Of a stretch of 64,000 nt of DNA, positions 2,969-56,555 are shown in pieces. Each line of letters begins with the position of its first letter. Position 1 is the stretch's first letter. Made by a program: the position numbers and the translations under genes. Source of the DNA: Candidatus Woykebacteria bacterium (GTDB taxonomy: Bacteria; Patescibacteriota; Microgenomatia; Woykebacterales; RBG-16-39-9b); assembly GCA_040876265.1 (NCBI GenBank), contig JBBDPN010000002.1, forward strand, positions 170,510 to 234,509. The letters are read 5' to 3'. The notes beneath the pieces were generated by a model. The model saw only the letters and a list, made by a program, of their open reading frames with translations. It ran no database searches and was not told where the DNA came from.

Positions 2969-4618
2969 TTGCTAAGCTTAAAGTTAGAGATATTCTATAT
3001 GGAAGAGCAGTTGCCCTCACAAAAGAAGTCTTTTTTCCGAAGAGAATCACTTTACCTTGTAGTTGTATTGATCGCTGCTATTATTGTCGGCGTACTTGTA
3101 ATATTTCGCCTCAACACCACTTCCACTACAACCCAAAGCGCTGATTATGTGGAAAATCTTCCCAAGGACCAAGTTACTGTAGGAGTTTTAGGGACGATCT
3201 CAGGGCTGTATCCAACCGTCCCCTTTGATGTGGATTCGACATCAATAAACAGTAACATGTTCGAAGGACTCACCCAGATCCGAAACGGAAGATTAGAGCC
3301 AGCTCTAGCTGAAAGCTGGACCAATCCTGACAATTTGACCTGGCGTATCAAATTACGTAGCGATGCAAAATTTCATAATGGCGAGGCGCTAGAAGCCAGC
3401 GATGTTAAATATACCATTGAAGAAGCGAAAAAACATGAGGATTGGAGAGACGGGGTTCTGAACTCCATAGCGGCCAGAATTGATCGGGTGGAAGTTGTTG
3501 ACGAGGCGACTGTCCAACTGCAAACTAAAACACCCGACGCCACCCTTCTTTACTGGTTAGTGTTTCTATTTATCCTTTCGGAAGATCAGATCAAAAAAGA
3601 TGGGCTGGACAAGGCAGTAGGCACCGGCCCCTACAAATTGGTTTCAATAAATGAAAAACAGATTACTTTGCAAGCAAATAATGATTATTGGGCGGGGGCG
3701 CCTAAGGTTAAAAAACTAGTTTATAAGACTTTTGAAGACGATGAGGCTTTAGCAGGTGGATTGGAAAGTGGTGAGGTTGATCTCGCCCTTTTATTTGTAA
3801 CTACCCACAACAGTCGGCTGGAAAAGAAAGGTTTTAGGATTGTTTCGGTAAGAAGTGGGGACATAACCTTTTTTGGCTTTGATATCAATAGTAAAAAAGC
3901 AGCCCATGTAAATACGGAAACAAACCCTTTCGCCAGTCTTGATGTACGTAAGGCAATATTGCTAGCGATTGACATCAATAAAGCGCTGGAGGCGACTAAC
4001 GTTGAGGGGAAGCCGGTGAGCCAGTTTGCGGTGCCGGAGCTGATAGGTTATAACCGCAGTCTTAAAAGACCGGTCACAAATATTACTGAAGCCAAAAACC
4101 TACTTGTCAAAGCCGGCTTCCCTGATGGTTTTAAAGTTACTCTGGATATCGATGAGCCGTCAAAAAGGTTAGGAGAGGAGGTTAAGAAACAACTGGCCCA
4201 AATAAATATAGAGGTGGAGTTAAACACTTACACCGACTTCCAGAGCTATTTTGAACGGTTGACAACTGACTCATCATTTTTTGCACTAGCCTATGCGCCT
4301 GACACTTTAGACTCGGTAGATCTATTAGAGAGCTTTTTCCACACAGATGGATTTAACAACTTGAAGGGTTTTTCAGATAAGGATATCGACAGCTTGCTAG
4401 AGAAAGCCCTATCGACATTTAACACAGCCGAAAGAGCTAAATTGACCCAAGAGATTCATAAAGCAGTTATGGAGAAACTTCCATCAATTCCTTTTTACAC
4501 AAGAGTCGACCATTATGTAATCAAGGATGATGTAGCCTTCAAACCGGCCCCACCGTTCTCATTCCTATCTGGCTACGAGATTTCCGGCCGGCAAAAAGCG
4601 ACAGAAGTTAGCCAATAA
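2969..4618 (+). CDS. ABC transporter substrate-binding protein, family 5 (peptide/nickel type), N-terminal membrane anchor
   Basis: N-terminal TM helix followed by SBP_bac_5-like architecture (GTGPYKLVS and related motifs). Stop is adjacent to the downstream kinase start. Confidence 0.7.
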   Translation: MLSLKLEIFYMEEQLPSQKKSFFRRESLYLVVVLIAAIIVGVLVIFRLNTTSTTTQSADYVENLPKDQVTVGVLGTISGLYPTVPFDVDSTSINSNMFEGLTQIRNGRLEPALAESWTNPDNLTWRIKLRSDAKFHNGEALEASDVKYTIEEAKKHEDWRDGVLNSIAARIDRVEVVDEATVQLQTKTPDATLLYWLVFLFILSEDQIKKDGLDKAVGTGPYKLVSINEKQITLQANNDYWAGAPKVKKLVYKTFEDDEALAGGLESGEVDLALLFVTTHNSRLEKKGFRIVSVRSGDITFFGFDINSKKAAHVNTETNPFASLDVRKAILLAIDINKALEATNVEGKPVSQFAVPELIGYNRSLKRPVTNITEAKNLLVKAGFPDGFKVTLDIDEPSKRLGEEVKKQLAQINIEVELNTYTDFQSYFERLTTDSSFFALAYAPDTLDSVDLLESFFHTDGFNNLKGFSDKDIDSLLEKALSTFNTAERAKLTQEIHKAVMEKLPSIPFYTRVDHYVIKDDVAFKPAPPFSFLSGYEISGRQKATEVSQ

Positions 4619-10853: not shown

Positions 10854-11213
10854 CTAAACTACCACCGAAACAATTTCCAAAAGAGTATAGAAGGAAAGCC
10901 CACTTATAAACAAACTTGACGAAATTAAAATTGAGGAAAGTAAACGCTCTCTCCGGGAAAAAAACCCGGCAAGCACAAAATTTAATATTATTACTACTAA
11001 GCTTAGCAATGGCAATAGCCAAAGGAACATTGGGTCAGCCAATCTTTGCTCGCCCCAGACCCTTGAAAACCATAGTGGAACAGCAAGTGGGAAATTACCA
11101 GTGTTTGTAAGTATCAAATAAGCAGAGGATATTGTAAAGATAAAGCTAAAGGTGGAGCTTATAATGATGTGAGCTGATAGGGTAGGAAAGCTCTTGACGA
11201 AAAATAACCTCAT
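10854..11213 (-). CDS. small hypothetical membrane protein
   Basis: 119-aa ORF with 3 hydrophobic segments. Lies in operon position with the GT4 gene. Confidence 0.3.
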   Translation of the reverse strand: MRLFFVKSFPTLSAHIIISSTFSFIFTISSAYLILTNTGNFPLAVPLWFSRVWGEQRLADPMFLWLLPLLSLVVIILNFVLAGFFSRRERLLSSILISSSLFISGLSFYTLLEIVSVVV

Positions 11214-11299
11214 ATACGCAAGCTGATTATAGCGAGAGCGAAGACGCTTCTCAAGTAGCCCTCGTGAGCGTTAGCAAATACTCAGGTTAATTTCTTACT

Positions 11300-11460
11300 A
11301 TTTTTTCAGTAACTTTTAGACCGTCAAACGGGTGCAGAGTCACAATTTCTAAATCAGTTTTTACAATTTTTTCTGTGACTCTTAATCCACGAAGTGGTTG
11401 CAAAGTAACCGAATTTAACTTTTAATTATTTTTTCGGTTACTTTATACTCCAACCTTTTC
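11300..11460. repeat. degenerate tandem repeat (~63 bp x 2.5) spanning the GT2 gene 3' end; contains one copy of the 21-nt CCACTTCGTGG motif and a 9-bp inverted repeat
   Basis: Units start at about 11300, 11365 and 11427 (tattttttcAgtAact / aattttttcTgtGact / tattttttcGgtTact). The last unit encodes the GT2 C-terminus. IR AGAGTCACA/TGTGACTCT at 11336-11344 and 11374-11382. Confidence 0.6.
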
Positions 11461-12908
11461 CCAAACAAGAGTCTGGTGTGGGCGTCCATGCCAGGTAAAG
11501 AGGAAAAGAAAAAGCCGGTGATTGGGAGTAGTATGTATTGAATAAGTGTCATCGGAAGCAAGCTCTTTTTGAAATACGCAGGTCGTGGAGGGCGCATAAG
11601 AAAATCAATTACGATAACAACCAAAAAGAATATCGCACATAGGGTAAGGATAAAACTAGCTATTCTGGGCAAATTAAAACCAAGAGCAGTATATTTAAAG
11701 GACTCATTGATCAGCGGAGGTATGGCTGCGCCTAGAGTGATTATCCACCAGTTCACCGGCCAAAGAATATGTTGCTCGGCTGCTCTTATAAATCTGACCA
11801 CAAAGGAACTGATCGGTACACTTTTTCTGAATTTGATAAAGCGGGAAAGAGCGTAAGCAATATCAGTAACCCCCCAGGCCCAACGTCTATTTTGAATATA
11901 TTGGGCTTTTAGGCTTTCCCAATAAGTCTGACCTTCAGCGGCATCGGCGTATAGTGGCAAAAATATAGATTCCAGCTCGACGTCACCTCTATTGGCGAAA
12001 AAAGCTTTAAAAAACAGATGCCAATCCTCTGGAATTACATCGACGTCCCAAAAGCCACTTTTTTCAAGCAGTCGCCAACTGGTAGAGTAGGTTGAATAGT
12101 TAAAATTGGACCCAGGGCGTAGAAGTTCAGCCACGCCGGTGATGGAGTAAATTGTGTGGACAACCCTGACGAATATCGGTACTCGCCAAATGTTGTTATA
12201 AAATAAAATAGCCGCTTGCCAAAAACGGCTGTATGGGTTTTCATTTGTCAAAAATTGGTAGGTAAGAAGGGCGAAATATTTTGGATGGATCGAAACGTCA
12301 GCGTCACAGCTGGTGACAGTGATGTAGTCTTTATCATAACCAGCTGCTTCAATAAAACCTTGGACTTGTTTAGCGGCGTGGGCTAAATTGGAAGATTTTC
12401 CGGCTACTTCATTTTTGGTGAGTTTATGGTGGGTGATCCAGAAATTTCCAAAGAAGTGCCCATACTTATCTTGAAGCTCCTTCGCCTTCTCCAAAACACC
12501 TTCTTCCCGCTCTTCTGTAGCTAAACAAACATCAATTTGCTTTGTGGTAAATTCGGTTTCGGAGAGAAATGTTAACGTCCGAGATAAAATTTCCTCCGGC
12601 TCTTTGTATGTTGCGACTATTACTATGTGCCTCATTTTTTGCCAAGGTAATCCTCCTTCCTTTAATTTTTTTAACCAATCGATACTGTTCGTTTTTTTGA
12701 TACGTCTGTAGCCTCGAACTGAGTTAACGGCCAACGTTACGGTGCGGTAAAAGAAGTAAATATCAAAAAAGATGATGAAATAAGCTACTGCAACCGGGAT
12801 AAAAAAACTAGCCCAGAAAGGTGAGCTTAATAAGAGTAGTGAAATTATAGGAGGAATAATTTCAAATAGTCTGTTCAACCGCTTTTCACGTCTTTCTTGT
12901 TTGCTCAT
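11415..12908 (-). CDS. processive family-2 glycosyltransferase (cellulose/chitin-synthase-like, membrane-embedded)
   Basis: N- and C-terminal TM segments. D/DxD motifs. QNRRWAWG (QxxRW) processivity motif. Confidence 0.7.
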   Translation of the reverse strand: MSKQERREKRLNRLFEIIPPIISLLLLSSPFWASFFIPVAVAYFIIFFDIYFFYRTVTLAVNSVRGYRRIKKTNSIDWLKKLKEGGLPWQKMRHIVIVATYKEPEEILSRTLTFLSETEFTTKQIDVCLATEEREEGVLEKAKELQDKYGHFFGNFWITHHKLTKNEVAGKSSNLAHAAKQVQGFIEAAGYDKDYITVTSCDADVSIHPKYFALLTYQFLTNENPYSRFWQAAILFYNNIWRVPIFVRVVHTIYSITGVAELLRPGSNFNYSTYSTSWRLLEKSGFWDVDVIPEDWHLFFKAFFANRGDVELESIFLPLYADAAEGQTYWESLKAQYIQNRRWAWGVTDIAYALSRFIKFRKSVPISSFVVRFIRAAEQHILWPVNWWIITLGAAIPPLINESFKYTALGFNLPRIASFILTLCAIFFLVVIVIDFLMRPPRPAYFKKSLLPMTLIQYILLPITGFFFSSLPGMDAHTRLLFGKRLEYKVTEKIIKS

Positions 12909-15749: not shown

Positions 15750-16793
15750 ATGGATCAGAATACTTTACTGTTTATTTTAATAGCCGTGGTGGTGGTTGGT
15801 TTTATCTTTCTGTTTCGGCAATTCCAGTCTATCAAAGAAGAAAAGGACAAGGATAAATCTAGTGAGGTTCTCATGAAATGGCTAGAGGAAATGAGAACCA
15901 GTGTCGATAAAAGTACCGAGACTATGCAACGCAGACTCGATGCGACGAACAAAGCGATTAATGAAAGGTTGGACAATGCCGCTCGGGTCATTGCCGGGGT
16001 TGGCAAAGAAGTAGGGGCCATGAGTGAAATTGGACGTAGCATGAAAGACTTGCAGGACTTTCTGCGTAGTCCAAAACTGAGAGGTAATATCGGCGAGCAA
16101 GTGCTGAAAGAACTGCTAGGCCAGTTTTTACCAAAGGAAAGTTTTCACCTCCAGTACCGATTTCGCAGCGGAGAAATTGTTGACGCGGCGATAAAGACAG
16201 AGAGCGGCATTATTCCGATCGACTCAAAATTTCCGATGGAAAATTTTAAACAAATGATGAAAGCCGAAGGTGAAGCGGAGAAAAAGGTTTATGAAAAAGA
16301 GTTTGGCCGAGATGTAAAGAAACATATTGACGATATCTCTAAGAAATATATTTTACCCGAAGAAGGCACGATCGATTACGCTCTGATGTACGTGCCTAGC
16401 GAACCTGTTTACTATGAAATTATGAGTAATATGCCTGAACTCTCTGATTACGCCCACAAAAAGCGAGTATTGCCGGTTTCTCCATCCACTTTTTACGCTT
16501 ATATGCGGGCGATTTTGATGAGTTTTGAAGGAAAAAAGATAGAGGAACGCGCTCGCGCTATCCTCGCCGCCCTTCGCGGTATAAAGGGAGACAGTGAAAA
16601 ATTTGGCGACGCTTTGCGTGTTCTCACCAAACATATTAACGATACAAAAAACACTAGCGACTTAGTCAACTCTCGCTACATTTCTCTACACTCCAAAATC
16701 GACACCGCCGGAAGTTTAAAAAGCGCTGACAAAAAAGCCCTCGAAGAACCACTAGCAGTAGAAGAAGTCGAAGAGATTACGGAAGAAACTTAG
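15750..16793 (+). CDS. rmuC: DNA recombination protein RmuC
   Basis: N-terminal TM, long coiled-coil, and the RmuC C-terminal region (IDSKFPMENF ... YALMYVPSE). Confidence 0.8.
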   Translation: MDQNTLLFILIAVVVVGFIFLFRQFQSIKEEKDKDKSSEVLMKWLEEMRTSVDKSTETMQRRLDATNKAINERLDNAARVIAGVGKEVGAMSEIGRSMKDLQDFLRSPKLRGNIGEQVLKELLGQFLPKESFHLQYRFRSGEIVDAAIKTESGIIPIDSKFPMENFKQMMKAEGEAEKKVYEKEFGRDVKKHIDDISKKYILPEEGTIDYALMYVPSEPVYYEIMSNMPELSDYAHKKRVLPVSPSTFYAYMRAILMSFEGKKIEERARAILAALRGIKGDSEKFGDALRVLTKHINDTKNTSDLVNSRYISLHSKIDTAGSLKSADKKALEEPLAVEEVEEITEET

Positions 16794-16806
16794 GAGGAGA
16801 GCACTA

Positions 16807-17049
16807 ATGGTTATAGAACAAGATGGGTTCGCAACCATCGAAGGTACCAGAGTGAGAGTCAAGGATATTGCGGACCAGTATCAGCGCGGCCTTGATGAGA
16901 TAGTTGCAGAGAAGCTGCAGGACTATTTCCCGCACCGGAGCATAGAGTAGATCCAAGCCGCAATTTCCTACTGGCGTGAGAACTCGGAGAAGATCGACGA
17001 GGAAATCCGCGCCGAAAAGGAAGTCTTTTTGGAAGCGTCGAAAGGATAG
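16807..17049 (+). pseudogene. DUF433-family (antitoxin-like) gene with in-frame TAG at 16948-16950
   Basis: The N-terminal 47 codons (IEGTRVRV...DYFPHRSIE) and the downstream in-frame segment (IQAAISYWREN...) together match the DUF433 consensus (GTRIPV ... YPxLTxEDIxAALxYA). The TAG sits at the conserved D/E position. A GGAGGAGAG ribosome-binding site lies 5 nt upstream. Confidence 0.5.
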
Positions 17050-17076
17050 CGGGAAGAACCTAGAAGGGAGATCAAT

Positions 17077-17310
17077 ATGGAGTGGCAGGACTGGCTCGTA
17101 TGGGGCGTTCTTGCTACCTGGCTTGGTGGAGGGTTGGTGTACTTTGCTCACTTGACTCACCAAATTCGGGCCGAGACAGGGAAGTGGCTCCACCCAACCG
17201 AACCTGGAGCCCAGATCCTCACCATCCTCATATGGTGGGTGATACTAGCGGGACGCTTTGCTTCGTGGATAGGAGGAGTGATGAAACGAAGGAATGGGGA
17301 GGTCTTGTAA
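17077..17310 (+). CDS. small hypothetical membrane protein (2 TM), G+C-rich islet
   Basis: 77-aa ORF with a GGGAG ribosome-binding site 7 nt upstream. Followed by an intrinsic terminator (ACGCCG...CGGCGT + T6) at about 17326-17364. Confidence 0.35.
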   Translation: MEWQDWLVWGVLATWLGGGLVYFAHLTHQIRAETGKWLHPTEPGAQILTILIWWVILAGRFASWIGGVMKRRNGEVL

Positions 17311-17514
17311 TCCAACCGCGCAACGACCGCCCTTAACGCCGACTCACACGAGCCGGCGTCTTTTTTGGAAACGGGTCGTTTCTCTTTTCCTTCGACTTCG
17401 CTCTCTTCGAGCCTGAGCGATGAGGCTCAAGCCTCAGAGCCGAAGGCAGGACAAGTTTCCGCAGTTTCCTCTCATCTTGACGCACAAATAATATTGGTGT
17501 ATGTTATATACACC

Positions 17515-17802
17515 ATGAAAAGGACCCAGCTTTATTTACCGGAAAAAACTTTGAAAATTTTGAAAAAAGAGGCGGCCGAGACTAAAAGGAGCGTTTCCGA
17601 AATCGTACGGGAAACTCTAGATGAAAGATTAAGAGAAAGTAGAGGCAACCCGGCTAGATTTTTAGTTGATATGGCCTTGCGAGCCGAACGGCTTGGCTAC
17701 AGCGGTCCAGTCGATTTAGCTGAAAAACACGATGAGTACCTTTATGGTAAAAAATCTCCTAAATGGGGTTATCTCTACAAAAATAAAAAGAAGAAAAAAT
17801 GA
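17515..17802 (+). CDS. vapB: ribbon-helix-helix (CopG/VapB-like) antitoxin with lysine-rich tail
   Basis: MKRTQLYLPEKTLKILKKEAAETKRSVSEIVRETL is a classic RHH N-terminus. Its stop overlaps the PIN gene start (ATGA). Confidence 0.6.
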   Translation: MKRTQLYLPEKTLKILKKEAAETKRSVSEIVRETLDERLRESRGNPARFLVDMALRAERLGYSGPVDLAEKHDEYLYGKKSPKWGYLYKNKKKKK

Positions 17803-18194
17803 TTTTTGTAGACACCAGTGCTTTTGTAGCTTTAAATAACCCTAAAGACCCACATCACAAAAAATCACTTCAAGTAAGTTTAAATCTAGAAAAAGAATCA
17901 GCGCCCTTTTTTACCACGAACTACATTTTGGCAGAAAGCTATACTGTAATAAGCCAAAAAGTTGACAAAGAAGCCAGCGTTTATTTTAGAGAGAATTTGG
18001 ATTTAAGGATTCGTATTGTTAGAGTGGGTGAAAGTTTAGAAGAGACTGCTTGGGAAATTTTTAAAGAAACACGCTCAAAAAATGTTTCCTACGTAGACTG
18101 TACTTCTTTTGCGGCGATGAAGGCTTTTAATATCAAGCGGGCCTTTGCCTTCGACGATGATTTTAAAAGAGCCGGATTTTCTTTATTGACGTAA
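17799..18194 (+). CDS. vapC: PIN-domain toxin VapC
   Basis: MIFVDTSAFVAL start and conserved acidic residues of PIN domains. 131 aa. Confidence 0.7.
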   Translation: MIFVDTSAFVALNNPKDPHHKKSLQVSLNLEKESAPFFTTNYILAESYTVISQKVDKEASVYFRENLDLRIRIVRVGESLEETAWEIFKETRSKNVSYVDCTSFAAMKAFNIKRAFAFDDDFKRAGFSLLT

Positions 18195-18257
18195 CCGTAG
18201 AATCCTTACCCTCGAAGAACCCGAAGAAATCACCGAGGAGTAACGACACACTATAGG

Positions 18258-18286
18258 TTGACATTCGAACCTATTTCCTGTATAAT
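18258..18286 (+). promoter_or_regulatory. perfect consensus sigma70 promoter TTGACA-N17-TATAAT
   Basis: TTGACA at 18258-18263. Exact 17-nt spacer. TATAAT at 18281-18286. About 40 nt upstream of the next ORF and its ribosome-binding site. Confidence 0.5.
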
Positions 18287-18328
18287 TCCCATCATCAAAT
18301 TAGCTAAATAACCTTGAAAGGATAGAGA

Positions 18329-18592
18329 ATGTTCGACGAACCACGTCAAGGGAGCATCGTCGGAAAAGTACTAAATGTACTCCTCGACCACATTGATGAG
18401 TTCGTGACGGAGGATCATATCTTAACAGAGGCTAGCCTCTGGGAGGAACACCTCCATCCGAACTTTCAGCGACAGCGTGTAGTCGCTGCGATGACTACCC
18501 TGCGGGGCAGGTACCGCTGGAAGATCGACACGAAGCGTAGTGGTGAGTACCCGAGCGAGGGTAACACCGCCTACCGACTACCTACACAGTAA
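18329..18592 (+). CDS. hypothetical small protein (ORFan), G+C-rich islet
   Basis: 87-aa ORF. AAGGA ribosome-binding site. Codon usage is clearly G+C-richer than the flanking genes. Confidence 0.4.
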   Translation: MFDEPRQGSIVGKVLNVLLDHIDEFVTEDHILTEASLWEEHLHPNFQRQRVVAAMTTLRGRYRWKIDTKRSGEYPSEGNTAYRLPTQ

Positions 18593-18606
18593 GGAGGGAA
18601 ACTGTC

Positions 18607-18903
18607 ATGCCGTGCAACAACAGGACCGTTCAGGAAGTGGTGGAGGAATGGTTGCGACAAGCAAGTCGAAGCCTCGAAAACCAGCTTCCTTGGAAGAGAG
18701 AGGAACTGCTGGTAGAGGCGATACGGGAGTCACTCGGTGATCCTCGCCTAGCTTTTGCCACTAGAGTCGGGGGAAAGCTGGTCATCCCGCCACCGCACTC
18801 GATACCGGTCCCGCAAGAAATGGAGAGACGCCGCCTCATTTTGAGGATGGCGTTGACTCTGCTCACGGAGATGGAATTACTCCGTTATCAAAACCAACCC
18901 TAG
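18607..18903 (+). CDS. hypothetical small protein (ORFan), G+C-rich islet
   Basis: 98-aa ORF. AAGGAGGG ribosome-binding site 6 nt upstream. Followed by a hairpin (GAAACGACC ... GGTCGTTT) with a T-run at about 18990-19045. Confidence 0.4.
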   Translation: MPCNNRTVQEVVEEWLRQASRSLENQLPWKREELLVEAIRESLGDPRLAFATRVGGKLVIPPPHSIPVPQEMERRRLILRMALTLLTEMELLRYQNQP

Positions 18904-19083
18904 GGCGAGCGTTGAAGATGCTGGAAACAGCGATGCCACGACCCCTAGGAGCTCCTAAGTAAATCAAGGGATTGATTTTCTTAGGAGGAGAAACGACCCC
19001 GTGTAGTCTTGTATGAAGTGGTGGTCGTTTTTCTTTTTCCTTCACTTCGCTCAGGATAAGTTATCTGGTAAAATGGTTTATCC

Positions 19084-22038
19084 ATGAGTAAAGTACTAGA
19101 GGGTTTGAACAAACAGCAAAAAGATGCAGTAATGACGACGGAAGGACCATTACTGATAATCGCTGGAGCTGGGACTGGAAAAACCACCGCCATTACCCGC
19201 CGCATCGCTTACCTTATTGAGCAAAAATTGGCTAAACCATCAGAAATTCTCGCACTCACCTTTACCGAAAAAGCAGCCGGAGAGATGGAAGAAAGGGTCG
19301 ATATTCTGGTTCCCTATGGTTACATTGACACTTGGATCTCTACATTTCACTCTTTTGGCAACCGCGTCTTGCAAGAAAACGCTATAGATCTAGGTCTATC
19401 CCCGGACTTTAAAGTCCTCACCCGCCCATCCCAAATTCTTTTTTTCCAACAAAACCTTTTTGCTTTTGATCCCTCTTATTATCGGCCACTTAGCAATCCA
19501 ACGAAGTTTATCGAAGCGATTTTGCAATTCATCAGTCGCTGTAAGGATGAAGACATTTCACCGGCAGACTACAAAAAATATGTCAGAAAATTGAAAAAAA
19601 CTACTCCAAGGAAACTTGGTTTAACGAAGAAGGAATGGGAGACCGAGGTCAAACGACAGGAAGAACTTGCTAATGTCTACGAAAAGTACGAGAAACTAAA
19701 AACAAATGCTGGACTTGTGGATTTTGGCGATCAGATTACTTTGACACTTAGACTTTTTCGCGAAAAACCAGGGGTTCTCAGAAAATACCAAAAACAATTT
19801 AAATACGTCCTTGTGGACGAATTCCAGGACACCAACTGGGCTCAGGACGAACTCGTCAAATTACTGGTAGAACCAAAGGATAATATCTGTGTGGTGGCAG
19901 ATGACGACCAGAGTATTTACCGTTTTCGCGGCGCGGCCATCAGCAACGTGCTGGAGTTTAAAAAGACTTACCCAAAAGCAAAAATAGTTACTCTGCTGGA
20001 AAACTTTCGCTCCGGGCAACCGATTCTCGACTCCGCCTACCGTCTGATTCGTCATAACGATCCAGATAGGCTTGAAGTACGTGAAAAAATTGATAAAAAA
20101 TTAAAATCAGTAAAAAAGAATCCGCCGGCTGGTGGATCTGGCCCGCCAAAAGAAATTTATGCTGAGACTCTTAGCGTTGAGGCTGATGCTATCGCAAAGA
20201 AAATTAAAGATTTAACAAAAAGGGAGAAGCTGGCCTACAAAGATATCGCAATTTTAGTGCGGGCAAATGCCCACGCCGATCCCTTTTTGCGAGCTCTCAA
20301 CATGAAAGGAATTCCCCACAAATTTGTTGGCAGTAGCGGCCTATACGCCCAGGAAGAAGTGAAGCTTTTAATCTCTTTCTTAACTGCAATTTCCAATTTC
20401 GACGATTCGCCAAACCTTTACAACCTTGCTTCGAGTGAAATTTATAAATTGCCTCTGAAAGACGCGATCGCGGTGATGGATTGGGCAAAAAGAAAAAGCA
20501 AGACCCTCCGTTATGTCCTCACCAAAATTGACGATCTAGAAGAGATCGAGCTAGGTGCGGAGGCGAAAGAGATAATTAAAAAGATAAACAGCGATTTAGA
20601 TTCTCTCGTTGATTTGTCCCGTAAAGAACCAGTCGGCCGGGCGCTCTATGAATTTTTGAAGAGAACTGGGTTCTTATCGCGGCTTGAACAAAAAGGCAAC
20701 GTGGAGGCGGAGATAAAGATCCAAAATATTGCCAGGTTTTTCGATAAAATCCGCGAATTTTCCGAGATTGCCCAAAATGAATCGGTGCGCGCCTTTACCG
20801 ATTGGCTCGCGGTTATGAGAGGTGCGGGAGACGACCCCGCAACTAGCGAATTTGATCCGGACACGAATGCAGTAAATATCATGACTGTTCACTCTGCCAA
20901 GGGTTTGGAATTCCCAGTGGTTTTTCTGGTGAATTTGGTTTCAGACAGGTTTCCCTCAAGAGAGAGGAGAGACGTTATTGCTATTCCGGCCGAACTAATA
21001 AAAGAAACACTTCCGGCTGGGGACTTTCACATGCAGGAGGAAAGAAGACTTTTTTACGTGGGTATGACGCGGGCGATGGATCATTTGTTTCTGACCTGGT
21101 CGCGTGATATTGGCGGAAAAAGGACCAAGAAAGTTTCTCCTTTTGTTCTTGAGGCACTGGATAAAACAGTCAGCAGTGCTCTGGTGGAAAAAACGAGCGC
21201 GCTAGAAAAAATCCACCGTCACGCTGGCCATACAGCCTCGGCTAGCAACCTACCTCAAGCAGGCGTAAAAGTAATTAAACTTACTCAAGGAGCAGTTGAT
21301 GATTACCAAACGTGCGCTTATAAGTATCGCTACGTTCATGTTTTGAGACTGCCTATTCTTCGTCACCACGCTGTGGTTTACGGAGCCGCGCTCCACATCG
21401 CTGTGGCCGCTTTTTACCGGGCCAAAATGGCTGGTAAAAAAATGCCACTCGCAGCACTCCTAGCAATTTTTGAAAAAGCCTGGACTGGCGAAGGCTTTCT
21501 TTCACAAGAGCATGAGGAGAGAAGATTAGCACAAGGGAAAAAGATCTTGGCTGATTTTTGGAGACGTGAAAAAGATAAAAAACAAAAACCCACCTTTATT
21601 GAAAAGGATTTTCGTTTCAGCGTCGGCGGAACTATTGTTACCGGTAGGTTCGATCGGGTGGATGTCGGCAGAAAAAAGGTGAAAATAATTGATTTCAAAA
21701 GTACTGAGGGCAGAAGCAAGGAAGAGATAGAAAAAAACGCCAAAGAAAGTATCCAACTTCGCGTCTATGCGTTGGCTTATTACAAAAATAGTAATCCGCC
21801 GGTAGTTCCAGATTTTGTCGGCATTTACGATCTTGATAGCGGAGTAGTGGGTGGTTACAAACCTACAAAGAAACATCTTGAAAAAACAGAAGAAGAGATC
21901 AAAGAAACTGCAAAAGGAATTAAAAATAATCTACAAGAGGACAATTTCCCAGCCAACCCAAAATACTTTGGTAGAGTCCCGGCGTGTTATTACTGTGCAT
22001 ACAATAGTATTTGCCCTTTCTCTTTAGTTAGAAGATAA
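19084..22038 (+). CDS. UvrD-family superfamily-1 helicase fused to a C-terminal RecB/Cas4-like PD-(D/E)XK nuclease with Fe-S cysteines
   Basis: Walker A GAGTGKTT. UvrD motifs (VDEFQDTN, TVHSAKGLEFP). C-terminal GRFDRVD ... IIDFKSTEG ... QLRVYALA nuclease motifs. Cysteines C...CYYCAYNSIC. Confidence 0.8.
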   Translation: MSKVLEGLNKQQKDAVMTTEGPLLIIAGAGTGKTTAITRRIAYLIEQKLAKPSEILALTFTEKAAGEMEERVDILVPYGYIDTWISTFHSFGNRVLQENAIDLGLSPDFKVLTRPSQILFFQQNLFAFDPSYYRPLSNPTKFIEAILQFISRCKDEDISPADYKKYVRKLKKTTPRKLGLTKKEWETEVKRQEELANVYEKYEKLKTNAGLVDFGDQITLTLRLFREKPGVLRKYQKQFKYVLVDEFQDTNWAQDELVKLLVEPKDNICVVADDDQSIYRFRGAAISNVLEFKKTYPKAKIVTLLENFRSGQPILDSAYRLIRHNDPDRLEVREKIDKKLKSVKKNPPAGGSGPPKEIYAETLSVEADAIAKKIKDLTKREKLAYKDIAILVRANAHADPFLRALNMKGIPHKFVGSSGLYAQEEVKLLISFLTAISNFDDSPNLYNLASSEIYKLPLKDAIAVMDWAKRKSKTLRYVLTKIDDLEEIELGAEAKEIIKKINSDLDSLVDLSRKEPVGRALYEFLKRTGFLSRLEQKGNVEAEIKIQNIARFFDKIREFSEIAQNESVRAFTDWLAVMRGAGDDPATSEFDPDTNAVNIMTVHSAKGLEFPVVFLVNLVSDRFPSRERRDVIAIPAELIKETLPAGDFHMQEERRLFYVGMTRAMDHLFLTWSRDIGGKRTKKVSPFVLEALDKTVSSALVEKTSALEKIHRHAGHTASASNLPQAGVKVIKLTQGAVDDYQTCAYKYRYVHVLRLPILRHHAVVYGAALHIAVAAFYRAKMAGKKMPLAALLAIFEKAWTGEGFLSQEHEERRLAQGKKILADFWRREKDKKQKPTFIEKDFRFSVGGTIVTGRFDRVDVGRKKVKIIDFKSTEGRSKEEIEKNAKESIQLRVYALAYYKNSNPPVVPDFVGIYDLDSGVVGGYKPTKKHLEKTEEEIKETAKGIKNNLQEDNFPANPKYFGRVPACYYCAYNSICPFSLVRR

Positions 22039-36322: not shown

Positions 36323-36464
36323 TAGAAAGTCGTATAGCAACCCCCGTACCTCAAAACTAAAGTTTTTCAGTACGCTTGGTTGCTGCGACCACTTCGTGGA
36401 CTAGAAAATGGTCGGCCGCGTTCAAATACCCCAAGAGGCTTTCCTATCGGTTCTAAAAGTTTAA
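36266..36464 (+). repeat. diverged ~57-nt direct duplication of the lepA 3' end with an 85-nt spacer carrying the 21-nt motif; the downstream copy is an intact 18-codon mini-ORF (36408-36464)
   Basis: ATGGTCGGTAAGGTATTAATACCGCAGGAGGCTTTTCTCTCTGTACTTAAGATTTAG versus ATGGTCGGCCGCGTTCAAATACCCCAAGAGGCTTTCCTATCGGTTCTAAAAGTTTAA. Peptides MVGKVLIPQEAFLSVLKI versus MVGRVQIPQEAFLSVLKV. Confidence 0.65.
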
Positions 36465-36477
36465 GGTTTAGCTCGTT

Positions 36478-36765
36478 TTGGTATACTTGAATTATATGTT
36501 GAGGAATATTATTGCCGTAGCCGTCTCAGTATTGGTGGGGATTGTTCTATTGTTTTTCGCGGTTGTATTTCTTTTGCTCTCGGCTGGTTTTGATAACTCC
36601 AATCCTTCACTTTCGGAAATCCTTCCAGGGGTAATTGCGTTGATAATAGCTATTGCAGCCGCCTCAGGTTTAAGTTGGGGGATAAGTAAGAACTGGAAAA
36701 TAGTTTTATTGACAGTCTCAATAGTAGTGTTGATATCCTTCCCAATTTTTGGTTTGGGGTTCTAG
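36478..36765 (+). CDS. small hypothetical membrane protein (3 TM)
   Basis: 95-aa hydrophobic ORF. Confidence 0.3.
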   Translation: MVYLNYMLRNIIAVAVSVLVGIVLLFFAVVFLLLSAGFDNSNPSLSEILPGVIALIIAIAAASGLSWGISKNWKIVLLTVSIVVLISFPIFGLGF

Positions 36766-36831
36766 GTTTTGTCCCTTCTTGTATCCTAGTAGCTAAAATA
36801 TTATTGTGAGCAACGCAATTTTTGAGTTGAC

Positions 36832-37731
36832 TTATTTCTGCTGAAATCCTTTTTCCAAAAAGCTATACACTTCTTTCCGGTAAAGATCGGGGTCGGATTT
36901 GTAGGTTTCTATGTGGCTGCCTTTATAAAAAACCACCAACCTACTTTTCTTGTTCGCATCGGCTAAAAGTTCTTGACTGTTTTTCAAGGGAATCGTTTCA
37001 TCCTGTGCCCCGTGGAGAAATAGGAATTTTCTTTTTGGAGCCAATTTTATCTTATCGATCGGTCGGATGATAGAAAGATCAACCCCGAAAAAAGTTTTGT
37101 TAAAGAAAAATATGGTTGGGTGAAAAAAGGGTGGGATCAGTTTTTCCTTCCACAAACGGTCGGATATGATAGGCCTAAATTCTGTAGCAGTACTATCTAG
37201 TACTATTGGACCAATTTCTTTCAGTTGGTCAATTACCATCAGAGTTGAAATAGCCCCAGTCGAGTCAGCAATTATACCAATATTTTTGGGTACAAAATCT
37301 TTAGTCTGTGCAAACTGTACCGCGCCCATCACATCATTTCCTTCCACTGAACCGTAACCAACCCTAGCCCCTTCGGAAAGACCATGGCTCCGGGTATCAT
37401 AAAGCAGAACATTGTAACCCCCTTCAATTAATTCTTTAGCAATCATTGGGGCTAGGTACTCAACGTTCGCTCTATTTGGTAGTAAACCGCTAACCATAAT
37501 AATTAAGTTTTTGCCTTTTGAGCGGAAAAGCCAACCCTTCAAATTGATCCCATCCAAAGCTTGGAAATCTACCTCCTCATAATTTTTTGAGATAACCTCT
37601 GGCGAAATTTCTATGCTAGGAGCTAGCCGAGAGGTCATAGCGTTGGCAATATAGACAGATATGCCAAGATACAATAGGGCCACGAGAACCAATGTAGCCA
37701 GAAAAATCTTTCCTACGATAATCTTCCTCAC
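36832..37731 (-). CDS. alpha/beta hydrolase-fold protein with N-terminal membrane anchor
   Basis: N-terminal TM. Alpha/beta-hydrolase-like spacing with HGxxD (LHGAQDE). The nucleophile elbow is not canonical. Confidence 0.45.
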   Translation of the reverse strand: MRKIIVGKIFLATLVLVALLYLGISVYIANAMTSRLAPSIEISPEVISKNYEEVDFQALDGINLKGWLFRSKGKNLIIMVSGLLPNRANVEYLAPMIAKELIEGGYNVLLYDTRSHGLSEGARVGYGSVEGNDVMGAVQFAQTKDFVPKNIGIIADSTGAISTLMVIDQLKEIGPIVLDSTATEFRPIISDRLWKEKLIPPFFHPTIFFFNKTFFGVDLSIIRPIDKIKLAPKRKFLFLHGAQDETIPLKNSQELLADANKKSRLVVFYKGSHIETYKSDPDLYRKEVYSFLEKGFQQK

Positions 37732-37769
37732 GAGTCCAATTTTAACCTAATCCCAATCCTCACACCAGC

Positions 37770-37808
37770 TCTAACACCCTTGACAACCATTAGCACTCGT
37801 GGTAGATT
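37770..37808 (+). promoter_or_regulatory. promoter (TTGACA-N17-TAGATT) overlapping a CIRCE-like operator (TTAGCACTC-N9-ttGTGCTAc) upstream of hrcA
   Basis: TTGACA at 37770-37775. CIRCE left arm TTAGCACTC at 37780-37788. Imperfect right arm GTGCTAC at 37800-37806. Confidence 0.5.
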
Positions 37809-37862
37809 TGTGCTACTCTCGAACCGTATCAGGTTCAATATCTGGACAGCAGGTGCATTTTT

Positions 37863-45516: not shown

Positions 45517-47013
45517 ATGGCAAAGAATAAGAGCAGAACAATTGAAAAAGGACAACAAAGTACGGCTCAGCCGTCAGGCAGACCGCCGGTCGTCGCGATT
45601 CTCGGCCACGTTGATCATGGAAAAACCACTCTTCTTGACTATATCCGCAGAAGCCACGTAGCAGCCAAAGAAGCTGGGGGAATAACCCAGCACATAGGGG
45701 CTTACCAAGTCACCCACAAAGGCCGAAAAATAACCTTTATTGATACTCCAGGCCACGAAGCTTTTTCCGCTATGAGGGCCCGCGGCGGTTCCGTCTCAGA
45801 CGTTGCTGTTTTAGTAGTAGCCGCCGATGATGGTGTCATGCCTCAAACAAAAGAAAGTATCGCCCACCTAAAAGCAGCCCAGACCCCGTTTATCGTGGCT
45901 GTTAATAAGATGGATTTACCCGGCACAAATATAGATCGGATCAAAAAGCAACTTTCGGAGGAAGGAGTTTTGGTAGAAGGGTTCGGAGGTGATGTTGTTG
46001 TAGTTCCGATTTCCGCGAAGAGGGGTGAAGGTGTTGATAATCTTCTCGAAATGGTTAATTTAGTCGCGGATATGCAAGGGCTCAAAGAAGAGACAGGAAA
46101 AGATTTTTCCGGAGTTGTTATCGAATCCAAACTAGATAAATTTAAAGGTCCAGTCGCTACGGTTCTGGTGAAAGAAGGAGTATTACGAATCGGCGACCCG
46201 GTGCATACAAAAAGTACTACTGGAAAGGTAAAGGCGTTGGTAGGAGATGAAGGTGTACCAGTGAAAGAAGCCAGGCCATCCACCCCAGTTGAAGTTTTGG
46301 GCTTTGCGGCCGTACCAAAAGTTGGTGAGGAGGTTAGCTCAAAAGAAGCGGAAACAGAAAAAGTGGAAAGCAAGAAACCGATTGAGACAGGTGAAAAATT
46401 TGTACGGCCGAAAGAAAACGAGATCAGGCTAATTATAAAAGCGGATGCTCAAGGCTCACTTGAGGCTATTACAAGTTCTTTAGAGAAACTTAAAAAGGAA
46501 AATCAGCAAGTAAAAATATATTATTCTGATACTGGAAATATTACTGATAGTGATATTCTCCTTGCCTCAGCGACCAAGTCCTTAGTCATCGGCTTTAACG
46601 CAAATATCTCAAACACCGCTAGCAAACTCGCCAGCGAAGAAGGAGTTCTGGTTAGAACTTACAATATTATCTATGAGCTAATCGACGAGTTGGAAGAGGG
46701 TTTGGAGGCGATTAGCCGGCCAGAAGTAAAAGAGGAGATCCTAGGCAATGCTGAAATACTGAAGATTTTTACGGCCGAGGAGGATAAAGTTGCCGGTTGC
46801 AGGACAATATCGGGTCGGATTAATAAGGGCGATCTACTGGCAATAAAAAGAGATGGAAAGGAAATTGGACGAAGTAAAATAGTTTCGATGAAGCACCGAG
46901 ACAGTAACATAAACGAAGCTAACGAAGGGGAAGAATTTGGACTGATTTTTGAAAAAAAGGTGCCCTTTGCCAAGAGTGATATAATTGTTGCTATGGGATC
47001 CTCCGTAAATTAG
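45517..47013 (+). CDS. infB: translation initiation factor IF-2 (compact, 498 aa)
   Basis: [22 protein letters not shown]-motifs and IF-2 C-terminal domains. Confidence 0.9.
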
Positions 47014-47078
47014 AAACCTTGGTTTCTAAGGTACTCTCGGATCCTGCGACCACTTCGTGGGCTACGGTCAATTTTATG

Positions 47079-56487: not shown

Positions 56488-56555
56488 GCAAAAAACTCCC
56501 TTGCCAAAACCTCTGCGACCTGATATTCTGTGCCTACCTTAAACATAAGCTGCCT

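What the first reader, a model, noticed from the sequence alone, without database searches (positions are those of the whole stretch)
11300..11460. 2.5 tandem degenerate copies (~63 bp) of the GT2 gene terminus, each with motif-like and hairpin content
Units begin at 11300, 11365 and 11427. The gene-proximal unit encodes the real C-terminus (RLEYKVTEKIIKS*). The next unit contains the 21-nt motif and still resembles coding sequence (VTLQPLRGLRVTEKIVKT). The distal unit has decayed and contains stops. A perfect 9-bp inverted repeat (11336-11344 and 11374-11382) bridges units. This is the same gene-end plus motif duplication pattern seen at lepA, which argues for a shared mechanism: motif-associated slippage or recombination, or insertion of a tiny element.
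Basis: seen in the sequence. Interest (0 to 1): 0.55.

Follow-up and report, generated by a model that had tools for sequence, protein, structure and literature searches.

The report
Hairpin repeat array copying a gene's end
The spacer after a glycosyltransferase gene in an uncultured Woykebacteria genome holds three tandem copies of a small, lineage-specific hairpin DNA repeat, each fused to a copy of the gene's last nine codons; the spare gene ends still read like working protein code, which points to a tiny element that swaps or stacks gene ends by recombination.

Summary
On the minus strand there are three units with periods of 62 and 66 nt. Each unit is D, then a loop, then T', then M. 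D is the last 9 GT2 codons plus a stop. T' is a perfect inverted copy of the start of D. M is a 19-nt box, GCRACCACTTCGTGGRYTA. The distal unit is not full of stops: D3 reads KVTEKIVRN*.

M is the constant part of an undescribed dispersed two-hairpin repeat, called E here.
- It has 3 exact copies in the window (0.05 expected), after GT2, lepA and infB.
- It has about 10-12 copies per Woykebacteria-like MAG.
- It is absent from Rfam, viral contigs and the paper library.
- Its orientation relative to genes is random, so it acts at the DNA level.

GT2 orthologues carry 0 to 3 units. Empty sites show that the C-terminus is native. The hairpins covary, including with the Val wobble base.

Across loci, E sits at duplications of 3' ends, 5' ends and tRNA ends. 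Real and ghost copies differ almost only at synonymous sites (pN/pS 0-0.3, pS saturated). This excludes simple slippage followed by decay.

Best reading: element-linked recombination stacks or replaces gene ends, a miniature of the icd/e14 case. The enzyme is unknown. An independent assembly reproduces the array exactly.

The parts
11415..12908 (-). GT2-family glycosyltransferase gene (497 aa). Its last 9 codons plus TAA form D1.
   Evidence: ORF list. Pfam Glyco_trans_2_3, E = 3.8e-07. 80 related loci; the C-terminus GKRLEYKVTEKI[IV]K.* is conserved, including in orthologues without units.
11415..11444 (-). D1: the real gene end, AAAGTAACCGAAAAAATAATTAAAAGTTAA (KVTEKIIKS*). Its first 12 nt form the 5' arm of hairpin 1 of unit 1.
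   Evidence: (I3).
11402..11413 (-). T1': TTCGGTTACTTT, a perfect inverted copy of the first 12 nt of D1. The hairpin loop holds the GT2 stop codon.
   Evidence: I3: 12 nt, 100% complementary. Fold of unit 1: -11.8 kcal/mol, z = -4.33.
11383..11401 (-). M1: the canonical 19-nt box GCAACCACTTCGTGGATTA (small hairpin CCAC-TTC-GTGG).
   Evidence: exact match; 3 in the window against 0.05 expected. (92 loci in public genomes).
11353..11382 (-). D2: first ghost terminus, AGAGTCACAGAAAAAATTGTAAAAACTGAT (RVTEKIVKTD). It starts immediately after M1.
   Evidence: pN/pS against D1 is 0.20, with pS 0.71.
11336..11344 (-). T2': TGTGACTCT, a perfect inverted copy of the first 9 nt of D2.
   Evidence: I6. 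Fold of unit 2: z = -3.22.
11317..11335 (-). M2: a diverged box, GCACCCGTTTGACGGTCTA. The hairpin is kept by compensatory changes (CCCG/CGG).
   Evidence: Structural pattern scan: 0 mismatches, 4 hits against 0.25 expected. Fold.
11287..11316 (-). D3: second ghost terminus, AAAGTTACTGAAAAAATAGTAAGAAATTAA (KVTEKIVRN*). It is intact, in the same frame as D2, and ends with a stop.
   Evidence: pN/pS against D1 is 0.25.
11256..11286 (-). Decayed third T'/box: CCTGAGTATTT + GCTAACGCTCACGAGGGCTA. It no longer folds.
   Evidence: Fold of unit 3: z = +0.33.
11214..11255 (-). Rest of the spacer. It holds a promoter-like TTGAGA-17-TATAAT (11226-11254) and a small hairpin AGAAGCGTCTTCGCTCT (11235-11251) upstream of the next ORF.
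   Evidence: 11 of 12 consensus positions; a consensus match only..
10854..11213 (-). Downstream 119-aa membrane ORF. In orthologues without units its homologue starts about 10 nt after the GT2 stop.
   Evidence: (L101, L104, L106). No Pfam hit.
36326..36464 (+). Sister locus at lepA. The ghost LepA terminus is (K)SRM KMVGRVQIPQEAFLSVLKV*. A complete long-form element (36336-36403, box at 36385-36403) is inserted inside the ghost ATG codon.
   Evidence: pS 0.92, pN 0.11. The ghost peptide is identical to the real C-terminus of another Woykebacteria LepA, P0010. Four relatives have empty sites.
46995..47064 (+). Sister locus at infB. A long-form element whose 5' arm supplies the last IF-2 codons and the stop (GGA TCC TCC GTA AAT TAG). 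The box lies at 47046-47064.

Best explanation
What it is (high confidence). The 201-nt spacer between GT2 and the next gene is an array of three units of a lineage-specific, dispersed, two-hairpin DNA repeat, called E here.
- The constant part of E is the 19-nt box GCRACCACTTCGTGGRYTA, preceded by a variable hairpin.
- At this locus the 5' arm of the variable hairpin is the gene's own last codons (D), and the 3' arm (T') is their inverted copy.
- Each unit is followed directly, after ...CTA, by another copy of D.

How it most likely arose (inferred). Whole units, each a gene terminus plus hairpin plus box, are gained and lost by recombination at the element.
- A unit, often from a diverged relative, pairs with the resident gene through the homologous terminus. 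It is joined at the box end (...CTA|) to the start of the resident terminus.
- This leaves one intact gene end and pushes another complete terminus downstream as a ghost.
- The scheme is the same as for integrative elements that carry a replacement gene end (e14 in icd), but on a 60-nt scale and with any enzyme supplied in trans.
- Repeated events stack units.
- T' stays complementary to its own D, either through selection for the hairpin or through hairpin-templated (quasipalindrome) correction.
- Units that lose their hairpins decay together with their ghost.

Shown: the anatomy, dispersal, covariation, empty and filled sites, and the codon-level conservation of ghosts.
Inferred: the joining mechanism, which copy is foreign, and the existence of a trans-acting enzyme.
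For: - The box occurs 3 times in the window against 0.05 expected.
- A scan of species-representative genomes gave 92 loci. They are multi-copy only in Woykebacteria-like MAGs, at 10-12 copies per MAG. None were found in viral contigs.
- A variable hairpin precedes the box, in short (37 nt) and long forms.
- Orientation relative to genes is random: 17 / 14 / 13 / 9 across the four classes.
- GT2 orthologues have empty sites (L094, L101, L104, L106) and filled sites with 1-3 units of 61-66 nt (L093, L105, L108, L120).
- Hairpins covary. 86% of cells are paired against 78 +/- 2 in shuffles and 22-50% in slid controls. 7 of 14 pairs change on both sides. The Val wobble base covaries with T'.
- Duplications of 3' ends, 5' ends and tRNA ends occur at E in other loci.
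- In an unbiased 514-kb scan, every strong terminus duplication was associated with E or an analogous hairpin.
- Real and ghost pairs show pS 0.5-1.4, pN 0-0.22 and pN/pS 0-0.3. Mismatches are period-3.
- The LepA ghost peptide equals the real LepA end of another lineage.
- The dead unit in L166 has broken hairpins and a ghost with a stop and a frameshift. By contrast, the intact units in the window carry intact but synonymously diverged ghosts.
- The array is identical in an independent assembly.
- The icd/icdC/e14 precedent is described in PMC13626634.
Against: - No integrase, transposase or HUH gene was found in the 64-kb window or recurrently near 70 copies.
- Only about 11 of 72 copies have a detectable flanking duplication, so duplication is not an obligatory product of insertion.
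- Two architectures exist. In one, the box sits at the junction with a target-derived hairpin. In the other, a complete E lies inside the ghost. One mechanism does not obviously give both.
- In the second architecture E may simply have landed in neutral ghost DNA.
- In the window's GT2 array itself the synonymous bias is moderate (pN/pS 0.20-0.29 over 9-10 codons).
- L166 looks like an in-situ duplication of its own terminus type.
- Ghosts that appear orthologous in L135 and L142 differ only synonymously. This could mean in-situ constraint rather than recent displacement.
- Which copy is foreign could not be determined.
Confidence: 0.45

Rival explanations
1. In-situ tandem duplication. The [terminus + hairpin + box] unit is copied by replication slippage or unequal crossing-over between the short direct repeats that flank a hairpin. 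The ghosts then stay codon-like because units turn over quickly: frequent deletions between D copies put a ghost back into service, or gene conversion from the functional copy refreshes it.
For: - Unit number differs among close relatives, from 0 to 3.
- L093 D1 and D3 are nearly identical, 22 of 24.
- The L166 ghost is of the same allele type as its real terminus and is decaying.
- Direct repeats that flank hairpins are classical slippage substrates (established knowledge).
- The L135 and L142 ghosts differ only synonymously, as if constrained in place.
Against: - Fresh slippage copies should be identical. Instead, units with intact hairpins have pS of 0.5-1.4 against the real terminus, with almost no non-synonymous change.
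- In L108, T1 and T2 show 8 differences, all at third codon positions.
- Ser TCG/AGT and Arg AGA/CGG codon-family switches occur between copies.
- Boxes within one array are very different from each other, while boxes at unrelated loci are identical.
Confidence: 0.25
2. Cis-regulatory RNA device. The alternative pairings D1:T' and T':D2, plus the box hairpin, sense translation of the GT2 end. They then control termination, mRNA stability or translation of the downstream gene, in the manner of an attenuator, REP-like stabiliser or MIRU-like coupling.
For: - The GT2 stop codon lies in the loop of a perfect 12-bp hairpin.
- T' can also pair partly with the next D (9 of 12).
- The same D1-T'-hairpin-D2 layout, with an unrelated second hairpin, is present at the GT2 end in a clade at 44% identity.
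- In L093 a small ORF starts at an ATGA overlap with the GT2 stop.
- In empty sites the next gene starts about 10 nt after the stop, so D carries its initiation region.
Against: - Genome-wide, E shows no orientation preference relative to genes.
- No U-tract follows the hairpins. The only terminator-like hit is weak and on the other strand.
- Pairing would constrain only 8-12 nt, not give codon-periodic conservation of all 27-80 nt, and not of 5' ends or tRNA pieces.
- Many orthologues do without the structure.
- The spacing between units does not preserve the reading frame.
Confidence: 0.1
3. The ghosts are translated. They would be either small ORFs (for example MQPLRGLRVTEKIVKTDLEIVTLHPFDGLKVTEKIVRN in the window) or C-terminal extensions of GT2 made by readthrough or frameshifting. 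Protein-level selection would then act on them directly.
For: - The open frame runs through T', the box and D in several lineages. The conserved peptide pattern is VTL.P..GL[KR]VTEKIVK.
- L108 D2 is in frame with GT2 after a UAG.
- L135 has an open 36-codon extension in frame.
- Ghosts are conserved at the codon level.
Against: - The frame relation differs between lineages (0, -1, +1).
- The window has no start codon with a ribosome-binding site, and no usable slippery site before the -1 frame stop (reading).
- The open frame follows automatically from the conserved nucleotide elements.
- The idea does not explain ghosts of 5' ends, ghosts interrupted by E, or tRNA fragments.
Confidence: 0.05
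4. Assembly artefact. Strain variants of one locus were concatenated at a repeat.
For: The source is a metagenome-assembled genome from a community with many related lineages. The ghosts resemble alleles of other lineages.
Against: - The Logan assembly of SRR27977662 gives an identical sequence with different contig ends.
- The same architecture appears in assemblies from independent projects and assemblers.
- The unit (62-66 nt) is shorter than the final k-mers and read lengths, so every junction must exist in reads.
Confidence: 0.02

Closest known systems
REP / BIME elements (repetitive extragenic palindromes; RAYT-associated) and similar bacterial short dispersed palindromic repeats
   Same: - Short (37-80 nt) imperfect palindromes.
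- Dispersed in many copies, mostly between genes and often right after stop codons.
- Occur in either orientation and sometimes in tandem clusters.
- The hairpin stem is kept by compensatory change.
- There is a conserved short sequence at the 5' foot ((T)ATAG here, GTAG in E. coli REP; the latter from my own knowledge).
   Different: - The sequence is unrelated.
- Copy number is about 10-12 exact boxes per roughly 1-Mb genome, rather than hundreds.
- The design is two hairpins with a constant 19-nt box.
- Clusters are direct tandems, not alternating.
- No RAYT or Y1 transposase gene was seen.
- As far as I know, REPs are not reported to be flanked by codon-conserved copies of gene termini.
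Integrative elements that carry a replacement gene end (e14 or phage 21 in icd; islands in tRNA or tmRNA genes)
   Same: - An intact gene end lies next to a displaced, codon-conserved but synonymously diverged second copy of the same end (icd / icdC; PMC13626634).
- The pattern is also seen with tRNA 3' fragments (L087, L085).
- Excision would regenerate a functional chimeric gene.
   Different: - Here only 32-80 nt of hairpin DNA separates the copies, not a 15-kb prophage with an integrase.
- Both 5' and 3' ends of many different genes are affected.
- Units stack in tandem.
- No recombinase has been identified.
Rickettsia palindromic elements (RPE) and other repeats inserted in frame in genes
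   Same: E can lie inside reading frames and contribute residues. Examples are the 12-aa insert KSLRALRPLRGL in a SufU-like ORF (L034) and the last 6-8 residues of IF-2 in this clade.
   Different: - The sequence and host lineage are unrelated.
- Most E copies are intergenic.
- RPEs are not associated with terminus duplications (my own knowledge).
IS200/IS605-type single-strand elements and their miniature derivatives (PATEs)
   Same: - Recognition would depend on a DNA hairpin.
- A guide-like stretch lies immediately 5' of the hairpin foot (T') and is complementary to the site where joining occurs.
- The end is precise, a few nt 3' of the hairpin (...CTA|).
- There is no fixed-length target duplication.
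   Different: - The guide here is 8-12 nt of Watson-Crick complement to the adjacent gene end, not a 4-nt guide.
- No TnpA or TnpB was found.
- The resemblance is architectural only and untested.
Mycobacterial interspersed repetitive units (MIRU)
   Same: Tandem units of 40-100 bp lie in the spacer between two co-directional genes. Small ORFs can overlap the upstream stop (the ATGA overlap in L093).
   Different: - MIRU copies are not copies of the upstream gene's terminus.
- The frame relation here is inconsistent between lineages.
- The window array does not abut the next start codon.

Membership tests
REP/BIME (RAYT-mobilised repeats) | A short imperfect palindrome, present in many dispersed copies, mainly extragenic. 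| tested here: met
   Two-hairpin fold with z = -3 to -4. 78 copies in low-GC MAG loci, 10-12 per MAG. Mostly between ORFs.
REP/BIME (RAYT-mobilised repeats) | An associated RAYT (Y1 HUH transposase) gene, typically flanked by REPs. | tested here: inconclusive
   None among about 50 window ORFs scanned with Pfam. There is no recurrent ORF family next to E in 70 loci. Whole genomes were not available.
MITE | Terminal inverted repeats and a fixed-length target-site duplication. | tested here: not met
   The ends share only TAG...CTA. Flanking duplications are absent in most copies and are 13-80 nt when present.
Integrative element with replacement gene end (icd/e14 type) | Two copies of a gene end flank the element and differ mainly at synonymous sites. 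| tested here: met
   pN/pS 0-0.3 with pS 0.5-1.4 in 17 pairs. Period-3 mismatches.
Integrative element with replacement gene end (icd/e14 type) | An element encoding its own site-specific recombinase lies between the copies. | tested here: not met
   Only 32-36 nt (GT2) or about 80 nt (lepA) lie between the copies. There is no integrase in the window.
Integron cassette / attC | R''/R' core sites (RYYYAAC ... GTTRRRY) and an IntI integrase. | tested here: not met
   The box and T' do not fit GTTRRRY. The GTNAC in T' comes from the Val-Thr codons (reading). No IntI was seen.
Diversity-generating retroelement (TR/VR pair) | Differences between the two repeats are confined to adenines of the template, with a reverse transcriptase nearby. 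| tested here: not met
   Mismatches are of all base types and sit at third codon positions. There is no RT in the window.
CRISPR array | Near-identical repeats separated by unique spacers, with cas genes. | tested here: not met
   Boxes within the array differ strongly from each other. The 'spacers' are copies of each other. There are no cas genes.
Intrinsic terminator | A GC-rich stem followed directly by a U-tract on the transcribed strand. | tested here: not met
   A-rich sequence follows the box (45 of 78 copies have A next). The terminator scan found nothing on the gene strand.
Known RNA families (Rfam 15) | A match to a curated covariance model. | tested here: not met
   Only tRNAs reach the gathering score in the window and 12 loci. 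Hits in 11150-11500 are no better than E = 2.
IS200/IS605-derived PATE | Subterminal hairpins with an adjacent guide, mobilised by TnpA (Y1). | not testable with these tools
   A hairpin with an adjacent complementary stretch is present. The enzyme and single-strand intermediates cannot be assessed from sequence alone.

The most novel reading that the evidence does not exclude
E is a new kind of minimal mobile unit: a hairpin box with an adjacent programmable guide (T'). The guide base-pairs with the start of a gene terminus and positions the 3' end of the box for joining. In this way terminus-carrying units from related genomes are spliced into essential genes without inactivating them. This would be a DNA-guided way of swapping gene ends, run by a host or trans-acting enzyme. 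It would make E both a marker and an agent of fine-scale horizontal exchange in CPR bacteria.
Probability: 0.2. Interest if true: 0.85.

Novelty: new variant of a known kind. Interest (0 to 1): 0.6.

Why it matters
If the reading is right, very small hairpin repeats in streamlined, uncultured CPR bacteria are more than inert REP-like debris.
- They mark, and probably mediate, events in which the first or last 10-25 codons of housekeeping genes (lepA, metG, ssb, infB, a pyrophosphatase, tRNAs) are duplicated or exchanged between lineages while the gene stays intact.
- That would be a previously undescribed scale of horizontal exchange.
- It would give a practical marker for recombination breakpoints in CPR metagenomes.
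- It would also be a lead to an unknown hairpin-recognising enzyme.

There are practical consequences for annotation as well.
- Ghost termini and element-encoded C-termini (IF-2) will mislead gene callers.
- The element also exposes mislabelled MAGs.

Tried and rejected
- Tandem Repeats Finder did not report the array. The copies are too diverged.
- Rfam gathering and E-value scans found no family.
- The viral contig scan gave zero hits.
- Literature searches for the motif string, for REP or MITE in CPR, and for terminus duplication at palindromic elements found nothing relevant.
- The DGR idea was rejected because mismatches are not adenine-specific.
- -1 frameshifting from GT2 into the ghost frame was rejected. 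The -1 frame has a TAA four codons before the GT2 stop, and there is no slippery heptamer after it (reading).
- A quick test for a 7-nt outer stem was uninformative: 71 of 78 copies passed, but so did 60 of 78 shuffled controls. It was replaced by folding z-scores and covariation counts.
- A pairwise identity matrix of units from different lineages gave no clear orthology or xenology signal.
- Identity profiles of the window against L166 and L093 were too diverged to locate a breakpoint.
- L135 against L142 showed a mosaic gene (69-100% identity) rather than one clean breakpoint.
- Clustering ORFs near 70 copies found no recurrent transposase or integrase.
- Comparison with relatives did not settle which LepA terminus is native.
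Full report
1. What is in the sequence

The GT2-family gene (Pfam Glyco_trans_2_3) lies on the minus strand at 11415-12908. Read on that strand, the 201-nt spacer before the next ORF (10854-11213) consists of three units.

- Unit 1:
  - D1, 11415-11444: AAAGTAACCGAAAAAATAATTAAAAGTTAA. This is the real end, KVTEKIIKS*.
  - One A.
  - T1', 11402-11413: TTCGGTTACTTT. This is a perfect 12-nt inverted copy of the start of D1, so the stop codon sits in the hairpin loop.
  - M1, 11383-11401: GCAACCACTTCGTGGATTA.
- Unit 2:
  - D2, 11353-11382: RVTEKIVKTD.
  - An 8-nt loop.
  - T2', 11336-11344: a perfect 9-nt inverted copy of the start of D2.
  - M2, 11317-11335: GCACCCGTTTGACGGTCTA.
- Unit 3:
  - D3, 11287-11316: KVTEKIVRN*.
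  - A decayed T'/box at 11256-11286.

The periods are 62 and 66 nt.

As single-stranded DNA the spacer folds at -32.6 kcal/mol, z = -4.6. Units 1 and 2 each give the same two-hairpin fold (z = -4.3 and -3.2). Unit 3 does not fold (z = +0.3).

The Logan assembly of run SRR27977662 has different contig boundaries. It reproduces this locus and the lepA locus without a single difference over 3.1 and 3.4 kb. An assembly artefact is therefore very unlikely.

2. The motif belongs to a dispersed repeat

The box GCRACCACTTCGTGGRYTA occurs exactly three times in the window, against 0.05 expected:
- after GT2;
- after lepA (36385-36403);
- at the end of infB (47046-47064; the IF-2 assignment is).

A structure-aware pattern adds only M2, giving 4 hits against 0.25 expected.

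A scan of one genome per species returned 92 loci.
- High-GC singletons are coding coincidences.
- All multi-copy genomes are low-GC MAGs of Candidatus Woykebacteria, or MAGs whose LepA and IF-2 are Woykebacteria-like bacterial proteins despite labels such as 'Nanoarchaeia archaeon'.

The window itself comes from a Woykebacteria MAG (LepA is 100% identical to P0001).

In every low-GC copy the box is preceded by a hairpin of variable sequence that starts AG... and ends ...CT. The hairpin usually follows TAT or AAT.
- A short form is 37 nt: TAGATCGCTTCGCGCTCTGCGACCACTTCGTGGGCTA (18 copies).
- Several long-form subfamilies have first hairpins of 50-61 nt. The lepA and infB copies in the window are long-form.

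I call the whole element E. Other findings on E:
- Nothing in Rfam 15 matches it.
- The box is absent from 2.9 million viral contigs and from the searchable literature.
- Its orientation relative to neighbouring ORFs is random: >E> 17, <E< 14, >E< 13, <E> 9. This argues for a DNA-level element of the REP/MITE kind rather than a strand-specific RNA signal.
- No transposase or integrase was found in the window or recurrently next to 70 copies.

3. Orthologous sites

Eighty metagenomic loci encode relatives of this GT2. The C-terminus GKRLEYKVTEKI[IV]K.* is conserved throughout, so D1 is native coding sequence, not element-derived.

- Several orthologues have empty sites (L094, L101, L104, L106). 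In L101, L104 and L106 the stop is followed about 10 nt later by the start of a homologue of window ORF 10854-11213.
- Others are filled: L105 has one unit, L093 two, L108 three and L120 one, all with periods of 61-66 nt.
- L166 and L097 each have one unit whose hairpins are degenerate. In L166 the ghost has acquired a stop and a frameshift, and in L097 the ghost has also decayed.

In an alignment of nine units from five lineages:
- the D:T' stem and the box stem are 86% paired, against 78 +/- 2 in column shuffles and 22-50% when partners are slid;
- 7 of 14 pairs change on both sides;
- the third base of the Val codon in D covaries with its partner in T' (AU, CG, GC, UA).

The box stem itself varies by compensation: CCAC/GTGG, CCAT/ATGG, CCAG..CTGG and CCCG/CGG.

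4. The same thing happens at other genes

In the window, lepA is followed by a second copy of its last 24 or so codons. The real end is KMVGKVLIPQEAFLSVLKI*. The ghost reads (K)SRM KMVGRVQIPQEAFLSVLKV*, with a complete E inserted inside the ghost's ATG codon (AT^G).
- Four LepA relatives have no E and no ghost.
- The ghost peptide is identical to the real C-terminus of another Woykebacteria LepA, P0010.

In other genomes E lies at duplications of:
- 5' ends: an epimerase in L003, ssb in L076, a HIT protein in L084, and metG in L103 and L094;
- 3' ends: L012, L047 (three copies), and a pyrophosphatase in L027;
- tRNA fragments: L085 and L087.

Two architectures recur.
- Type I: D - loop - T' - box - D. 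Examples are GT2, L012, L047 and L043.
- Type II: an intact terminus next to a ghost that contains a complete E. Examples are lepA, L003 and L027.

In an unbiased scan of 514 kb (561 ORFs), every strong terminus duplication was associated with E. The one exception was a GT2 clade at 44% identity, where an unrelated hairpin occupies the same layout. Conversely, only about 11 of 72 E copies have a detectable flanking duplication.

5. The copies look like working code

Nei-Gojobori counts on 17 real/ghost or ghost/ghost pairs give pS 0.5-1.4 (saturated), pN 0-0.22 and pN/pS 0-0.3 in 16 of the 17 pairs. The exception is the nearly identical L093 D1/D3 pair, at 0.76.

| Pair | pS | pN | Note |
|---|---|---|---|
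| lepA | 0.92 | 0.11 | |
| L108 T1/T2 | | | 8 differences, all at third positions |
| L105 | | | 3 differences, all synonymous |
| Window GT2 | | | pN/pS 0.20-0.29 |

- Mismatches are period-3.
- Copies differ by Ser TCG/AGT and Arg AGA/CGG family switches.
- A duplicate that decays neutrally next to a constrained original should give pN/pS of at least about 0.5, with many non-synonymous changes once pS is saturated. That is what the 'dead' L166 unit shows.
- Units with intact hairpins therefore carry ghosts that were functional termini until recently, but in a sequence background diverged from the resident gene. This rules out simple slippage followed by decay.

6. Mechanism

The pattern is the one left by integrative elements that bring a replacement gene end. 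The classic case is icd, which extends into prophage e14, with the displaced icdC fragment on the far side and many synonymous differences (PMC13626634). Here the intervening DNA is only a hairpin repeat.

My best explanation is that [terminus + hairpin + box] units move between related genomes, or between copies.
- They are integrated through homology on the gene side and a join at the box end (...CTA|), which abuts the start of the next D in every Type I unit.
- Repeated events stack units.
- Hairpin-templated correction or selection keeps T' matched to its own D.
- T' lies immediately 5' of the box hairpin and is complementary to the site of joining. It could therefore act as a guide or splint. 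This step is inferred, not shown.

Unresolved points:
- no enzyme has been found;
- most E copies have no duplication;
- Type II may simply reflect E landing in neutral ghost DNA;
- L166 looks like an in-situ duplication;
- the L135 and L142 ghosts, which appear orthologous, differ only synonymously, while that gene is itself a recombination mosaic (69-100% identity).

I therefore give the identity of the structure high confidence and the mechanism moderate confidence (0.45 overall). The rivals are in-situ slippage with rapid turnover (0.25), an RNA regulatory device (0.1), translated ghosts (0.05) and an artefact (0.02).

7. Comparison and verdict

E works like a REP/BIME-type repeat in form and dispersal, and like an att-site duplication in its footprint. 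It fails the defining tests of MITEs, integron attC sites, DGRs, CRISPR arrays and intrinsic terminators (see the membership table). It can also contribute coding sequence, as Rickettsia palindromic elements do:
- a 12-residue insert in a SufU-like ORF;
- the last residues of IF-2 in this clade. The E consensus ATA GAT CGC TCC GTA ACT AAA TAA reads IDRSVTK*, matching the clade-specific IF-2 end AIG[RS]SV[TS]K*, which more distant IF-2 proteins lack.

I rate it a new variant of a known kind. It is an undescribed repeat family whose association with codon-conserved copies of gene termini is unusual and directly testable with read-level and whole-genome data.

Noticed in passing
window 36323-36464 (and 36465-37862): The lepA ghost terminus begins right after the real TAG TAG and is interrupted by a complete element inside its ATG codon. 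lepA to hrcA is 44 nt in relative L173 but about 1.5 kb here. The extra DNA holds the element, the ghost, a small membrane ORF and a minus-strand hydrolase, so the ghost sits at the edge of a small inserted segment.
   Followed up: partly
window 46995-47064: The last IF-2 codons and the stop lie in the 5' arm of the element. Woykebacteria IF-2 proteins end AIG[RS]SV[TS]K*, which is the in-frame reading of the long-form element consensus. More distant IF-2 proteins end ..GDIIQAVKE*. The clade's IF-2 C-terminus therefore looks element-encoded, or else the long form derives from the infB end.
   Followed up: partly
window 56488-56536: A possible decayed element lies directly after gene 55555-56487: the hairpin GGCAA..TTGCC followed by CTCT GCGACCTGATATTCTGTGCCTA.
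   Followed up: no
window 11226-11254 (-): A strong promoter-like match, TTGAGA-17-TATAAT (11 of 12), lies at the distal end of the spacer, only about 13 nt before the ATG of ORF 10854-11213. It overlaps a small hairpin (11235-11251) that resembles the first hairpin of the short form.
   Followed up: no
L087 4430-6510: A 1.9-kb segment with one long secreted or membrane ORF is bracketed by two identical 54-nt copies of [tRNA 3' fragment + element], beside an intact tRNA gene. The layout is cassette-like or islet-like.
   Followed up: partly
L034 around 3650-3760: A short-form element sits in frame inside a SufU/IscU-like ORF. It adds KSLRALRPLRGL between conserved segments, in the manner of a Rickettsia palindromic element.
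   Followed up: no
L135, L136 and L142, downstream of GT2: A GT2 clade at 44% identity has the same layout: real end IEYRVTEKV*, an inverted copy, a second hairpin, and a ghost IEYRVTEKV*. The second hairpin is unrelated to the box. The real copy uses AGA for Arg and the ghosts use CGG or CGC. The GT2 gene is a 69-100% identity mosaic between L135 and L142.
   Followed up: partly
L103 about 430-760; L094 about 380-710: A ghost 5' end of metG (MNKAKKFFVTTPIY) is followed by a reversed element and then the real metG start. This shows that the duplication occurs with the element in either orientation.
   Followed up: partly
L014, L040-L044, L054, L056, L059, L060, L080 (DASVHF01); L015, L022, L051, L079 (DATBWR01); L004, L006, L034 (OZ246414): MAGs labelled 'Candidatus Nanoarchaeia archaeon' or 'uncultured Gammaproteobacteria' carry the element. 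Proteins that sources name as from 'Nanoarchaeia archaeon' MAGs include bacterial LepA and IF-2 about 63-66% identical to the window's. The taxonomic labels look wrong.
   Followed up: partly
window 15750-22038: Recombination and repair genes lie near the locus: RmuC (15750-16793), an RHH-PIN toxin-antitoxin pair (17365-18194) and an AddA-like UvrD helicase / PD-(D/E)XK nuclease (19084-22038). None was linked to the element.
   Followed up: no
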